Part shown: positions 57,001-60,000 of the stretch, piece after piece | Numbering within the stretch: the first letter of the stretch is position 1 | Layout of the letters: the number at the start of each line of letters is the position of its first letter | Source: a virus | Lineage: Duplodnaviria; Heunggongvirae; Uroviricota; Caudoviricetes | Strand: one strand, 5' to 3' | IMG/VR virus record: IMGVR_UViG_2687453424_000001 | Length of the DNA stretch: 64,000 bases | Position numbers: made by a program

Positions 57001-60000
57001 TACGTTTGGAAGACATACACCAGTTTCTGGTTGCTTATGTCCAAACTCATTCGCGTACACAATGGCCGCTCGCTCCAGATTGCGTCTGTATTCTTTCTGT
57101 TGCCAGATCACGTCCTGTGCCATGAACTTAATTGGCTTAGCGTCTTCTATGCGCTCAGGCGTTTCGTGAGTACCTTTAGCCTGAATCTGCGCTCTGCTTA
57201 GAGTAGGGCGGTGTAATACTTCTGAACTTATTGCTTCTTCGCGGGCCAGTACGCCGTTAGCTAATGCCTTTGCCTTTAAACGCTCACGACGACGAGAACG
57301 TGAATTGCCTTTGAACTGAGTTCTGCGTGTCATATAGACCTCCTGATGAACTTTGGTGGTGTGGTAGGTGGGAGACCCATTTCGACCTGTTTCGGCCTAC
57401 TTCAATTCGGCAATAGTCCCGCAGGCCTCGCCGCTTTACGTGCGACATATTCCCGTCCATGAACCCTTCACCACACCCCAAAGTTCACTTTGGTTATTGC
57501 GCTTTGTCAGCGCCGTAGATTCATATTCGAATCGTTGTATATTCACCGCCCTGGTGAGTAATGCGTCCTGCTGACGACGATAATAATGAACCAATAGTTC
57601 GACATTATCAAGAACTATTGGTACGAATTTTGGTGATTTATTAACTCTACGAAGTATGATTCTGATATATAAGGAAATTTATTTTTGAAAATGTGGCTGA
57701 TGAAGGTTATGCGGCAGGGATCATAACTGCATGGTTTAGCGAGTTACATCAATAAATACAATTGGTTATGTTTTTTAGGTGGGCGAACGTGAGGCAAAGA
57801 AAACCCGGCGCTGAGGCCGGGCTAGATTTTAAAGTATTTATCTTTTAGAGATGTAGATGTAAAACTTTTCGCCTTTGAAAATTTTTTGTCATCAGAAGGG
57901 CTTATGAACTCATCTTTTTTGTAGGGAACCGCTAATGCTGCATCACGTCTGCGAGGCAGCTTGCTTACTTCCTCGCGCTTTTTCATGATCAGTTATCCTT
58001 TAATAACCTATACAGTTTTGTAGGGGTACATCCTGAGGATATTGTTAAGTTCGTAGCACGCCTTTTCCGCCCATCATCGTATAAACGAAAACCAGTAGTA
58101 GACGAATTTTCTGCGTCAAAAACTATAGACAGTATAGCGTCCCCAGACTTTTTTTGCCATTCGCATGTGCCGTTAGTTGGTTTCGTCATCTGTAGACGCC
58201 AGTCAAGAACGCCATCACTTATAGCTGAGAGATCGTTTAGTACATCTAGTACGGATTGATATCTTTCATTTGGATCTACATGAATGCATTTGTTCACTAT
58301 TGTTATTAATTTTTTATGTATATGGGGAGGATACTCTTTTAATGGATAGCAGCCATTAATTATCGACTCTCTGAGTTGTTCAATCGTGCTAAATGCAGAT
58401 CTTTCTCTTTCAAAATTATCATGTCCAACACACATTCTATATATGGTTAATCCTGCCTGATATATGTCATATGTGAAATTATAATCATTTGTTGATAAAG
58501 AAAAATATTCCGGTGGCACATGAAAATGATATCCAAACTCAGGCGCAGCTCTCGATTCCTCATTGACTAACTGAGATAATCCAAAGTCAGATAGCATGGC
58601 CTCATTTCTGTTTGATATCATAATGTTATTAGGTTTTATATCAAAATGCATAAGACCTTTTGAGTGTATATGATAAAGTCCACTTAAAAATTGAATGGAA
58701 TACCGTATTATCTCCCTGCTTGTAAGATTATTTTTTTTCATTAATTGGTTTAGCGAACCATTATGATAAAATGGCATGGCTATATAGATATTGCTCTCAC
58801 ATTGAGCAGCATACTGAACTTGCACAATATTTGGATGTGCATGTTTATAGAGAAGCCTTGCTTCATTAAAGTAGTCGTCGTGGTTAGTGTTTTCTTTTTT
58901 TTCTATTTCTTTAATCACCAAGTCATGAGCTAGGTGTCTGTCATGAGCCAGATATACTTTTGAAAAACAACCCTGTTCTTCTAGATCACTAATCCATTCG
59001 AATTCTACATCAGCTCTTTTGTATGGAGTTAGCATCCCCTTACCTCCGCAGATAGTGCAGCCAAAACAGCTTCATTTGTTTCAGTTGTAAAACCAGAATT
59101 ATCGATTCCATTTATATTGCGGTGTGACTTCAATATTTCTTTATACTCGATCTCTGTTAGGTTCAATGATGATTTCATGCCAGATTTTCTAATAGTGTAA
59201 TATTTTCTTACATCACTGCTTGAAAATGCTTCTTGAATAACAGCTTCTATATAAAGGCGGTCAATGCTAAGATTATCAGAGTTTGATTCAGTAACGCGTA
59301 TGGCAGCTAATTCAACATTATATAAATTAAGAATGTCGAGGATGTTATTTCTCACATACTTTAATTTTTCTGGTGTGTCTAAGGTCGAAGGTATTTTAAT
59401 AACATCAACACATTTGAGTGCAGACTCATTAGTGCAATATACAACAAAAGATGTAACTTTGGGCGCCGCTCTAACACCTAGTATTCTCATTTTTTATATC
59501 CTATTTTAGAATCAGGCCGCATCTCTGCGACCATCCATCATCCAAACGTCTCTTCACTCATCCGAAGAAGCAGCAATCCGGGTTAGCACGCACAAGCTCA
59601 AGCGCATCAGTCAGCGAAAGTTCAGTACTGTACTGATGCCATTTCATATCCTTCCGCATCCAATAGATTTTCCATCTATCCAGAGAACGTATGTACTTGA
59701 TTCTTGCTGATGGCAGGATGTTTGTTTCACCTGGATTGCCCTGCCACACGGGGCGCTGTTCGCCGATATCTATCGTTTGGTCATTGATGCTATAAACAAT
59801 ATCCAGTTCATTGCGGATATGTTCAGGCGGCCTTATGCTTTCAATGAATTGGTGAACTTCTTTTTTTACTGCTTGATATTCAAGGTCATTGAACGCCATC
59901 TATCCTCCTTACCCAAACGTCTCTTCAGGCCACTGGTTACCAGCTATGTGACGATGAAGTCACGAACTTTTCAGCCACTCCCTTGCCTCGATGTCATCCA

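What the first reader, a model, noticed from the sequence alone, without database searches (positions are those of the whole stretch)
59558..59899. 113-aa ORF with a strong RBS immediately downstream of cI
It is the first gene after cI on the same strand, 60 bp away, with AAGGAGGA ahead of the ATG. Its position predicts expression in lysogens. The C-terminal W/Y-rich region ending CCFFG has no assignable function (DUF3024-like is a low-certainty recollection).
Basis: inference. Interest (0 to 1): 0.5.

Follow-up and report, generated by a model that had tools for sequence, protein, structure and literature searches.

The report
Lysogen-expressed DUF3024 gene after cI
The ORF is gene L0084 of Shiga-toxin phage 933W, a conserved small protein of unknown function (DUF3024) made in lysogens together with the repressor; it is a self-contained portable gene, not part of the neighbouring kinase defence module.

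Summary
On the minus strand, 59899..59558 encodes a 113-aa protein 60 nt after cI, behind UAAGGAGG. The window is Stx2 phage 933W, and the ORF is its gene L0084 (vb_24B_13c in Φ24B). It is a full-length DUF3024 (PF11225, E 1e-30) and matches PADLOC's untested candidate PDC-S43. No promoter or terminator lies between pRM and tM, and published RNA and 2D-gel data place the gene in lysogens. dN/dS is 0.08-0.15.

The link to the kinase is not supported. L0083-stk is an invariably paired module and occurs in at least 21 viral contigs without DUF3024. Nearly identical DUF3024 follows five S24 repressor types, lambda cI itself among them. Behind it come at least six different cargos: the kinase module, a ParA-like ATPase, an NYN RNase and unknown pairs. 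Distant homologues (892 clusters) have no conserved neighbour, and two are single-gene integron cassettes.

The gene is bracketed by two fossil copies of a lambda-type cI 3' end (QWPEETFG*). This marks it as a cassette recombined into the known cI-N hotspot. The model (pLDDT 92) is a helix/five-strand/helix sandwich with no informative structural relative.

The gene is therefore already catalogued, autonomous and lysogen-expressed, and its function remains unproven. My best guess is a binding-type exclusion or defence factor.

The parts
59558..59899 (-). L0084 / vb_24B_13c coding sequence: 113 aa, 13,472 Da, pI 5.6, full-length DUF3024 (PF11225); matches PADLOC PDC-S43 and phrog_3467
59903..59911 (-). 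Shine-Dalgarno UAAGGAGGA, 4 nt before the ATG. Its first three bases (59911-59909) are the stop codon of the fossil cI 3' end.
   Evidence: left mostly unpaired in the RNA fold
59909..59959 (-). cI-L0084 spacer. In frame after the real cI stop it reads LHRHIAGNQWPEETFG*. It is a non-coding fossil of the 3' end of a lambda-type cI gene and a conserved module-boundary sequence.
59913..59927 (-). Upstream copy of the exact 15-nt direct repeat TGAAGAGACGTTTGG (gene orientation)
   Evidence: the only two copies in 64 kb; 0.13 matches expected at up to 2 mismatches
59538..59558 (-). Second fossil, AGT GAA GAG ACG TTT GGA TGA (SEETFG*), starting on the last base of the L0084 stop codon. It contains the downstream repeat copy at 59542-59556.
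59515..59532 (-). Hairpin GGUCGCA-GAGA-UGCGGCC in the L0084-L0083 spacer. It recurs at the same junction in other phages and has no T-run after it, so it is not a terminator by the scan.
   Evidence: (z -2.25)
59960..60667 (-). cI repressor of 933W (HTH_3 + Peptidase_S24), first gene of the pRM transcript. Annotated as leaderless: the pRM transcription start is placed at the base before the ATG in HM208303.
60675..60702 (-). pRM as annotated in AF125520 and HM208303, transferred by coordinates (window = locus + 56299)
59029..59490 (-). L0083 (res), a 153-aa RuvC-like protein (phrog_3875). It overlaps stk by 7 nt and accompanies stk in every locus that holds upstream sequence. It belongs to the kinase module, not to L0084.
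57989..59035 (-). stk, a eukaryote-like protein kinase (Pkinase E 2e-46; PD-T4-6 / MAD6-like in PADLOC)
57822..57986 (-). L0081, 54 aa (phrog_4063), last gene of the operon
57802..57823 (-). tM intrinsic terminator (8-bp stem with 6 GC pairs, then a T-run) that ends the pRM operon

Best explanation
L0084 is an autonomous single-gene 'moron' cassette in the cI-N slot of a lambdoid prophage. That is the position held by rexAB in lambda and by bstA in BTP1.

Shown:
- It is transcribed with cI from pRM (and presumably pRE) as the second gene of a five-gene operon that ends at tM.
- It has its own near-perfect Shine-Dalgarno, whereas cI is annotated as leaderless. This fits the report that the protein was seen on lysogen 2D gels where cI was not.
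- It is under strong purifying selection.
- It travels independently of both the repressor type upstream and the cargo downstream, and it was recombined in at conserved cI-3' boundary sequences.

Inferred:
- The 13.5-kDa cytoplasmic protein has a helix / five-strand antiparallel sheet / helix sandwich.
- It carries a family-invariant set of Arg/Lys and Trp/Tyr residues on the sheet and an invariant C-terminal D-x3-C-F-[FW]-G tail.
- It has no catalytic-looking relative.
- I therefore infer that it acts alone by binding a conserved target (protein or nucleic acid) rather than by catalysis.
- Its most likely role is to protect the lysogen against other phages or mobile DNA (superinfection exclusion or defence, PADLOC PDC-S43), independently of Stk.
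For: Identity and family:
- The region is 100% identical to 933W, Φ24B and Stx2 phage I, with annotation.
- It matches Pfam DUF3024, phrog_3467 and PADLOC PDC-S43 (E 4e-41) over its full length.

Operon:
- No internal promoter or terminator was found, and tM lies at 57823-57802.
- cI, DUF3024, RuvC-like and stk are co-regulated in transcriptomes (PMC10789677).
- Expression is lysogen-type (PMC3342100; PMC4651098), and the 13,472 Da mass matches.

Autonomy:
- In 90 Enterobacterales loci, DUF3024 follows 933W cI (41), a 245-aa S24 repressor (13, plus one truncated copy of it), a 234-aa hybrid repressor (11), lambda cI itself (10), a Salmonella c2-like repressor (5) and several rarer types. The E. 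coli copies are 96-100% identical to the window's protein, the Salmonella copies 86%, and the others 56-81%.
- It precedes L0083-stk-L0081, two unknown gene pairs, ParA-like ATPases, an NYN RNase, an MqsR/MqsA-like pair or a P63C protein.
- L0083-stk occurs without DUF3024 in at least 21 of 51 viral loci.
- Other cargos also occur without intact DUF3024.
- 80 distant loci show no conserved neighbour and no kinase, cI or L0083 homologue.
- Their neighbours include many TA and RM genes (PIN, ParE, HicB, PhD, MazE, AbiEii, type I R).
- Two homologues are single-gene integron cassettes (L013, L064).

Cassette scars.

Selection: dN/dS is 0.08-0.15.

Structure and conservation:
- The model has pLDDT 92 and pTM 0.84.
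- The family invariants are R23, P24, P25, R29, D33, E47, R49, P50, A65, K66, W76, Y79, W80, R82, K86, W87, Y90, D106, C110, F111 and G113.
- Foldseek found nothing at E below 0.01.
Against: - No experiment on the function of any DUF3024 protein or of PDC-S43 was found in the held literature.
- The PADLOC label is only a guilt-by-association candidate.
- About 51 of 144 phage GenBank records (Sakai / Stx2-II type) carry a frameshifted copy. The gene is therefore dispensable and is lost in a major lineage.
- A conserved gene next to a variable slot could persist partly because it serves as a homology arm for recombination. That would explain the combinatorics without any defence role.
- The MALDI identifications in Riley 2012 did not reach MASCOT significance, and that paper's P2/P3 labels disagree between its Tables 2 and 3.
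- I had no model coordinates, so I could not compute which conserved residues are surface-exposed.
Confidence: 0.45

Rival explanations
1. L0084 modulates repressor stability or SOS induction. It would bind RecA*, or the S24 domain of the repressor, and tune autocleavage, as 434 Hex, PsiB and DinI do. That would set the induction threshold of the Stx prophage.
For: - In Enterobacterales the gene sits directly after an S24-type (RecA-cleavable) repressor in 83 of 90 loci, across five or more immunity types.
- 434 Hex is a precedent for a second pRM-encoded protein that blocks RecA-mediated repressor cleavage (PMC3564112).
- One homologue lies just after a DinI-like gene (L281).
- One natural fusion joins an XRE HTH to DUF3024 (P0061).
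- RecA is universal, which would fit the wide taxonomic spread. On my own knowledge, integron integrases are SOS-controlled.
Against: - The PsiB similarity is weak (rmsd 3.1 over 85 residues, 5% identity) and sits among many unrelated alpha/beta sandwiches.
- Position after cI is explained more simply, because the pRM operon is the lysogen-expressed slot and a known mosaic hotspot (PMC8585504).
- In the Kluyvera locus the upstream repressor lacks an S24 domain.
- Most distant homologues have no repressor neighbour: only 5 of the 119 upstream ORFs scanned, from 67 loci, carry HTH_3.
- Sakai-type Stx2 phages manage with a pseudogene.
- The DinI and HTH-fusion observations are single cases.
Confidence: 0.15
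2. L0084 is an accessory subunit of whatever cargo follows it. It could be a sensor or adaptor, or a self-immunity or antitoxin-like brake. In 933W it would keep Stk silent until infection, or couple Stk to its trigger.
For: - It is always the first gene ahead of a variable cargo that looks toxic or defensive: kinase, NYN RNase, MqsR-like toxin, ParA-like ATPase.
- It shares one operon with stk.
- Self-immunity elements in this slot have a precedent in BstA-aba (PMC8585504).
Against: - L0083-stk(-L0081) occurs without DUF3024 in at least 21 viral loci at 48-97% Stk identity.
- C6-C7, C9/C21 and NYN cargos also occur without intact DUF3024.
- The same protein, 96-100% identical, would have to serve mechanistically unrelated partners.
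- Integron-cassette and stand-alone copies have no partner at all.
- From my memory of Friedman et al. 2011 (paper not held, so unverified), plasmid-borne stk alone excludes HK97.
Confidence: 0.12
3. L0084 serves host physiology unrelated to phages, for example a stress, metal or metabolic adaptor as its frataxin-like fold might suggest. Alternatively it has little present function in 933W and persists mainly as a conserved recombination arm beside the cargo slot.
For: - The family spans many phyla outside prophages.
- Pseudogenisation is frequent in Sakai-type phages.
- The combinatorial pattern is what a homology arm would produce.
Against: - dN/dS of 0.08-0.15 and family-wide invariant residues argue for a selected protein function.
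- Contexts are enriched in TA, RM, prophage and integron settings rather than metabolic operons.
- The fold similarity is too weak to transfer any function.
Confidence: 0.2

Closest known systems
Pfam PF11225 (DUF3024) / PADLOC-DB candidate PDC-S43 / PHROG 3467
   Same: Full-length, high-scoring member of all three. It has the same length and stand-alone architecture, and the family C-terminal C-F-[FW]-G. The family's other invariants (R23, P24-P25, R29, D33, E47, R49, P50, W76, W80, W87, Y90) are also present.
   Different: L0084 has R66 where most members have K, and N106 where 101 of 111 have D. None of the three resources gives a function, and PDC-S43 is an untested candidate.
Lambda rexA-rexB (abortive-infection genes on the pRM transcript downstream of cI)
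   Same: Same slot and same logic: accessory genes co-transcribed with the repressor in lysogens, in the cI-N mosaic hotspot. Some prophages with lambda's own cI carry DUF3024 9 nt after the cI stop, where lambda has rexA.
   Different: There is no sequence or family relationship. It is a single 113-aa soluble protein rather than a sensor plus membrane channel pair, and no exclusion phenotype is known.
BstA of Salmonella prophage BTP1 (defence protein encoded directly downstream of the prophage repressor)
   Same: A single gene directly after the repressor, highly expressed in lysogens, with the association to the repressor locus conserved across prophages (PMC8585504).
   Different: There is no homology and the protein is much smaller. 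No aba-like self-immunity element has been shown. DUF3024 also occurs far from prophages, including in integron cassettes.
933W Stk kinase module (L0083-stk-L0081; PD-T4-6 / MAD6-like kinases)
   Same: Same operon and same lysogenic expression. In the sample of loci read, it co-occurs with the exact window protein in Stx phages.
   Different: It is genetically separable in both directions, so L0084 is a neighbour and not a component. L0083, not L0084, is the invariable partner of stk.
434 Hex, PsiB and DinI (small proteins that restrain RecA-mediated repressor or LexA cleavage)
   Different: There is no sequence similarity, the fold match is weak and no functional data exist. DUF3024 is not confined to contexts with S24 repressors.

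Membership tests
Pfam DUF3024 (PF11225) | Whole-protein score above the gathering cut-off, with end-to-end model coverage | tested here: met
   106.5 bits against 24.9; residues 4-113 on model positions 2-112 of 112
Pfam DUF3024 (PF11225) | Family-wide invariant residues, including the C-terminal D-x3-C-F-[FW]-G-COOH | tested here: met
   In an alignment of 113 representatives (median 35% identity), L0084 keeps R23, P24, P25, R29, D33, E47, R49, P50, A65, W76, Y79, W80, R82, K86, W87, Y90, C110, F111, F112 and G113. It has R for K66 and N for D106.
PADLOC PDC-S43 (single-gene phage-defence candidate) | Match to the PDC-S43 HMM | tested here: met
   PDLC05018, E 4.4e-41, residues 1-113 on positions 1-115 of 115
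PADLOC PDC-S43 (single-gene phage-defence candidate) | Works as a single gene without a fixed partner | tested here: met
   No conserved neighbour in 80 distant loci. Flanks are variable in 90 Enterobacterales loci. Single-gene integron cassettes occur in L013 and L064.
PADLOC PDC-S43 (single-gene phage-defence candidate) | Confers protection against phage | not testable with these tools
   No experimental test of PDC-S43 or DUF3024 was found.
Lysogeny-operon moron of the lambdoid cI-N hotspot (rexAB, bstA, stk type) | Lies between cI and N on the cI strand, with no promoter or terminator of its own before the operon terminator | tested here: met
   cI at 60667-59960, L0084 at 59899-59558, tM at 57823-57802. 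No minus-strand promoter-like or terminator-like site lies between them.
Lysogeny-operon moron of the lambdoid cI-N hotspot (rexAB, bstA, stk type) | Expressed in stable lysogens and not raised on induction | tested here: met
   From the literature only: PMC3342100, PMC4651098, PMC10789677. The protein-level evidence is weak because the MASCOT score was not significant.
Lysogeny-operon moron of the lambdoid cI-N hotspot (rexAB, bstA, stk type) | Dispensable and mosaic: presence or absence and flanks vary among otherwise related phages | tested here: met
   recombination scars
Stk kinase defence module of 933W | Obligate co-occurrence with the kinase | tested here: not met
   At least 21 L0083-stk loci lack DUF3024. 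At least 45 DUF3024 loci lack the kinase. No kinase lies near 80 distant homologues.
Type II toxin-antitoxin pair | A conserved adjacent partner gene | tested here: not met
   TA genes are frequent nearby (PIN x4, ParE x3, HicB x2, PhD x2, MazE x2), but none recurs as a partner.
Integron gene cassette | A single ORF bounded by attC sites within an array | tested here: not met
   Not met in the window, where no attC-like repeat is present. It is met for two homologues. In L013 the gene (6001-6348) lies between 115-nt attC-like repeats at 5868-5982 and 6359-6473. In L064 it lies between VCR-like repeats.
RecA/SOS modulators (PsiB, DinI, 434 Hex) | Sequence or confident fold relationship to a known member | tested here: inconclusive

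The most novel reading that the evidence does not exclude
DUF3024 is a portable, partner-independent regulator of RecA-dependent cleavage, or more broadly of the SOS/induction switch. Temperate phages would place it directly behind their S24 repressors, and integrons would carry it as a cassette. In 933W it would set the threshold for prophage induction and therefore for Shiga toxin 2 release. The evidence does not exclude this. Supporting hints are the tight linkage to S24 repressors of five or more immunity types, weak PsiB-like fold similarity, one DinI neighbour and one HTH-DUF3024 fusion. A less exotic novel reading is a non-enzymatic single-protein anti-phage factor shared by prophages and integron cassettes across phyla, which I put at about 0.35.
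Probability: 0.1. Interest if true: 0.8.

Novelty: new member of a known kind. Interest (0 to 1): 0.4.

Why it matters
933W-type phages carry Stx2, and toxin release depends on the lysogeny switch. Any protein made from the repressor transcript in every lysogenic cell is a candidate modifier of induction, of superinfection, or of the phage susceptibility of EHEC strains, which matters for phage therapy. L0084 is in 227 of 5,426 complete E. coli genomes and in 144 phage records, and it still has no function.

The survey here changes how to study it. It should be tested on its own, not as part of the kinase module. The real kinase module is L0083+stk(+L0081). The family's spread as single-gene integron cassettes and in neighbourhoods containing many TA and RM genes makes it a cheap candidate for a single-gene defence or exclusion screen. 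The fossil cI-3' boundary sequences also give a concrete picture of how cargo is swapped in the cI-N hotspot.

Tried and rejected
- Kinase-module membership: rejected by co-occurrence counts.
- A conserved partner or TA pairing in distant homologues: blastp clustering of neighbours, phmmer with cI, L0083, Stk and L0081, and Pfam scans of 119 upstream and 132 downstream ORFs found nothing recurrent. The gene calls in high-GC MAGs were crude (longest ORF plus a GC3 filter), so weak partners could have been missed.
- PD-(D/E)xK-type nuclease reading of D33/E47/K66: rejected, because the topology does not fit and no nuclease appears among the fold hits.
- RNA element in the spacers: Rfam gave only a chance sR20 hit at E 4.5. 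I briefly considered a hammerhead-like CUGAUGAG and dropped it once the repeat proved to be cI coding sequence. The cI-L0084 spacer is not unusually structured (z -0.05).
- Internal promoter to explain the transcript excess over cI reported by Riley 2012: none found by the consensus scan.
- Integron context for most distant loci: only 2 of 80 were clear. My second, gapless attC scan was too strict and is uninformative.
- The C-terminal FFG as a remnant of cI's TFG: rejected, because C-F-[FW]-G is invariant across phyla.
- Literature: Friedman 2011 and Tyler 2004 are not held. A search for L0084/L0083 returned only irrelevant catalogue numbers.
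Full report
**1. What is at the coordinates**

The ORF is real but lies on the minus strand. 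Its ATG is at 59899 and its stop codon at 59560-59558, giving 113 aa. The cI ORF (59960-60667, minus; Peptidase_S24 + HTH_3) ends 60 nt upstream. UAAGGAGG lies at 59911-59904, four nt before the ATG. The protein ends NPDCCFFG. All elements of the observation are confirmed.

**2. Identity**

Bases 57800-60700 are 100% identical to phage 933W (AF125520 9915-12815), Stx2 phage I, Φ24B and many other Stx phages.
- In 933W the ORF is L0084 (AAD25429). In Φ24B it is vb_24B_13c, already annotated as 'contains DUF3024'.
- Pfam gives DUF3024 (PF11225) with E 1.2e-30 end to end.
- PHROGs gives phrog_3467, of unknown function.
- PADLOC gives the untested single-gene candidate PDC-S43 with E 4e-41.
- NCBIfam gives nothing.

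**3. Operon and expression**

On the minus strand the order is pRM (about 60702-60675, transferred from AF125520), cI, L0084, L0083 (RuvC-like), stk, L0081 and tM.
- A consensus scan finds no promoter-like or terminator-like site on that strand between cI and the tM hairpin at 57823-57802.
- Rfam finds nothing.
- HM208303 places the pRM transcription start at the base before the cI ATG, so cI is leaderless. L0084 has an almost perfect SD.
- Riley et al. 2012 found lysogen-only 2D-gel spots assigned to 933W p23 and p24 and RT-qPCR profiles like cI. The p24 entry is 13,472 Da, exactly the mass I compute for L0084.
- Two caveats apply to that paper. The MASCOT scores were not significant, and the P2/P3 labels are swapped between its Tables 2 and 3.
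- Veses-Garcia et al. 2015 list vb_24B_13c with cI, res and stk among genes not raised by induction.
- A 2023 transcriptome shows cI, DUF3024, RuvC-like and stk moving together.

**4. A real, selected protein**

- Close homologues (56-97% identity) keep the MAFNDLE start, the 113-aa length and the CFFG end.
- dN/dS against the Salmonella and Kluyvera alleles is 0.15 and 0.08.
- An exhaustive profile search finds 892 clusters at 50% identity, nearly all stand-alone proteins of 110-117 aa.
- They occur in many phyla: Proteobacteria, Nitrospirota, Actinomycetota, Bacteroidota, Verrucomicrobiota and Bdellovibrionota.
- Across 113 representatives (median 35% identity), the invariant or nearly invariant positions are R23, P24, P25, R29, D33, E47, R49, P50, A65, K66, W76, Y79, W80, R82, K86, W87, Y90, D106, C110, F111, [FW]112 and G113-COOH.

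**5. Not part of the kinase module**

I surveyed 90 loci from IMG/VR and public assemblies that encode a close homologue.
- In 84 of them DUF3024 is the first gene after a repressor gene, at a spacing of 9-371 nt.
- The repressor types are 933W cI (41), a 245-aa S24 repressor (13, plus one truncated copy of it), a 234-aa repressor with a different N-terminal domain (11), lambda cI itself (10), a Salmonella c2-like repressor (5), three rarer S24 types and a DicA-like HTH.
- The genes after DUF3024 differ:

| Cargo after DUF3024 | Loci or source |
|---|---|
| L0083-stk-L0081 | about 41 |
| Unknown 162-aa + 206-aa pair | 14 |
| 177-aa + 86-aa pair | 12 |
| ParA/CbiA-like ATPases | Salmonella and one other clade |
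| NYN-domain protein | 1 |
| MqsR-like/MqsA pair | Kluyvera |
| P63C proteins | 2 |

Conversely, 51 viral loci encode an Stk relative at 48-100% identity. In every one of them that holds upstream sequence, L0083 lies directly upstream of stk, but at least 21 lack DUF3024. Other cargo types also occur behind a cI 3' end without intact DUF3024.

In complete E. coli genomes, DUF3024 is in 227 of 5,426 and L0083-stk in 225 of 5,426. The kinase module is L0083+stk(+L0081), and L0084 is a separable neighbour.

**6. The wider family is autonomous**

Around 80 distant homologues:
- blastp clustering finds no recurrent neighbour;
- phmmer finds no cI, L0083, Stk or L0081 relative;
- Pfam scans of 119 upstream and 132 downstream ORFs give only scattered hits. 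These are HTH_3 x5, PIN x4, ParE x3, HicB x2, PhD x2, MazE x2, AbiEii-type AAA_21 x2 and type I restriction R x2.

Two homologues are single-gene integron cassettes.
- In L013 the gene (6001-6348) lies between two copies of a 115-nt attC-like repeat (5868-5982 and 6359-6473), in an array of 25 or more such repeats.
- In Vibrio sp. HA2012 (L064) it lies between VCR-like repeats.

A cassette has to work alone, so this supports a self-contained function.

Rare fusions exist. One uninterrupted XRE-HTH + DUF3024 ORF is P0061 on L339, and one is DUF6933 + DUF3024.

**7. Recombination scars**

- An exact 15-mer, TGAAGAGACGTTTGG in gene orientation, occurs only twice in the 64-kb window. One copy is just before the L0084 SD (59927-59913) and the other just after its stop (59556-59542).
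- It is the end of the lambda cI coding sequence: ...CAG TGG CCT GAA GAG ACG TTT GGx stop, which reads QWPEETFG*.
- The real 933W cI ends EWLKSS*. The 51 nt after its stop read LHRHIAGNQWPEETFG*, and the fossil stop TAA is the start of the L0084 SD. After L0084 a second fossil reads SEETFG*.
- In IMG/VR, lambda-type and 933W-type cI 3' ends with this boundary are followed by many different sequences. These include the lambda rexA leader, L0083 directly, and DUF3024 directly.
- Kluyvera, Erwinia and CwR94 homologues are bracketed by their own versions of the repeat.

L0084 is thus a cassette recombined into the cI-N slot at conserved boundary sequences. That slot is already described as a mosaic hotspot holding rexAB and bstA (PMC8585504).

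About 51 of 144 phage GenBank records (Sakai / Stx2-II type) carry a frameshifted copy, so the gene is dispensable for the phage.

**8. Structure**

- AlphaFold2 with 30 homologues gives pLDDT 92 and pTM 0.84: helix 5-22, five antiparallel strands (33-93), helix 96-105.
- No solved relative is found by sequence.
- Foldseek against PDB and BFVD gives nothing below E 0.01.

The fold is a generic frataxin-like sandwich. No enzyme-like relative appears.

**9. Mechanism**

Shown: co-transcription with cI, its own strong SD, selection, autonomy and cassette mobility.

Inferred: the product is a small cytoplasmic binding protein. It would use the invariant Arg/Lys + Trp/Tyr residues of its sheet and the invariant C-terminal tail. 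Its most likely role is protection of the lysogen against incoming phages or other mobile DNA, independently of Stk. I put this at about 0.45.

Rivals:
- a Hex/PsiB/DinI-like modulator of RecA-dependent repressor cleavage (0.15);
- an adaptor or brake for the downstream cargo (0.12, weakened by the separability data);
- a non-phage host function, or mainly a recombination arm (0.2).

No experiment on any DUF3024 protein or on PDC-S43 was found.

**10. Verdict**

The expression inference is right and already published. The kinase-module framing is wrong.

The gene is catalogued (L0084 / DUF3024 / PDC-S43) and belongs to a known kind, a lysogeny-operon moron in the cI-N hotspot, but it has no demonstrated function. 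Interest is moderate. Its constant position directly behind varied repressors and ahead of varied cargo, together with its life as an integron cassette, makes it a well-defined and cheap target for a single-gene test.

Noticed in passing
window 59909-59959 and 59538-59558 (minus strand): Two fossil copies of the 3' end of a lambda-type cI gene (QWPEETFG* and SEETFG*) bracket L0084. The first lies in frame just after the real cI stop, and its stop codon forms the start of the L0084 Shine-Dalgarno. The same boundary sequence ends many immunity modules in IMG/VR and is followed by many different cargos.
   Followed up: yes
window 57989-59490 (minus); loci L290-L338: L0083 (RuvC-like, 153 aa) overlaps stk by 7 nt. 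It lies directly upstream of stk in every Stk-encoding viral locus that holds upstream sequence, down to 48% Stk identity. The functional kinase unit is probably L0083+Stk (often with L0081), although the literature treats Stk as a single-gene system.
   Followed up: partly
L340 (NC_004914 Stx2 phage II) 2460-2960; L099: Sakai / Stx2-II-type Stx2 phages (about 51 of 144 phage records with a hit) carry a frameshifted DUF3024 remnant (MEFNGHEYQAVKKKFIYSLKA*, with the rest in another frame). It sits in an unannotated gap after their cI.
   Followed up: partly
L013 5868-6473; L064 2380-3040: DUF3024 homologues occur as single-gene integron cassettes. One lies between attC-like 115-nt repeats in an uncultured gammaproteobacterium, in an array of 25 or more repeats in 12 kb. 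The other lies between VCR-like repeats in Vibrio sp. HA2012.
   Followed up: partly
L101, L141, L238, L245, L254, L256, L267, L271 (IMG/VR): Prophages that encode lambda's own cI (ending VGKVIASQWPEETFG) carry DUF3024 9 nt after the cI stop, where lambda has rexAB. Downstream they have either the kinase module or an unknown 162-aa + 206-aa pair.
   Followed up: partly
L085, L087 5236-5940: A 234-aa repressor shares its C-terminal S24 half, up to ...REWLKSS, with 933W cI but has a different N-terminal DNA-binding domain and a different cro. It looks like a domain-swapped immunity type with the same DUF3024-kinase cargo.
   Followed up: no
L339 1640-2404 (protein P0061): A single uninterrupted ORF fuses an XRE-type HTH domain to a complete DUF3024 domain, next to a DUF6994 gene on a 2.6-kb metagenome contig. 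It is the only such fusion among the best 150 family hits.
   Followed up: partly
window 59515-59532 (minus): The hairpin GGUCGCA-GAGA-UGCGGCC after L0084 recurs, with a longer stem, directly after lambda-type cI genes and in CwR94 (L004). It may be an RNA stability or processing element at module boundaries. Riley 2012 reported large transcript-level differences along this operon.
   Followed up: partly
L281 574-813: In one 63%-identical homologue, the gene upstream of DUF3024 is a DinI-like protein (PF06183, E 1e-21). DinI proteins modulate RecA.
   Followed up: no
PMC3342100, Tables 2 and 3: The spot labels P2 and P3 are inconsistent. Table 2 gives P3 as 13,472 Da / 933W p24, which is DUF3024. 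Table 3 gives P2 the accession and the Salmonella SE1 homologue that belong to DUF3024. [quoted passage not shown]
   Followed up: yes
L004 2290-3115: In Enterobacterales bacterium CwR94, several small genes (a zinc-finger ORF, DUF3024 and a 52-aa membrane ORF) lie between cI and a P63C-domain gene. Copies or degenerate versions of the cI-3' boundary motif separate them, which suggests serial cassette insertion.
   Followed up: no
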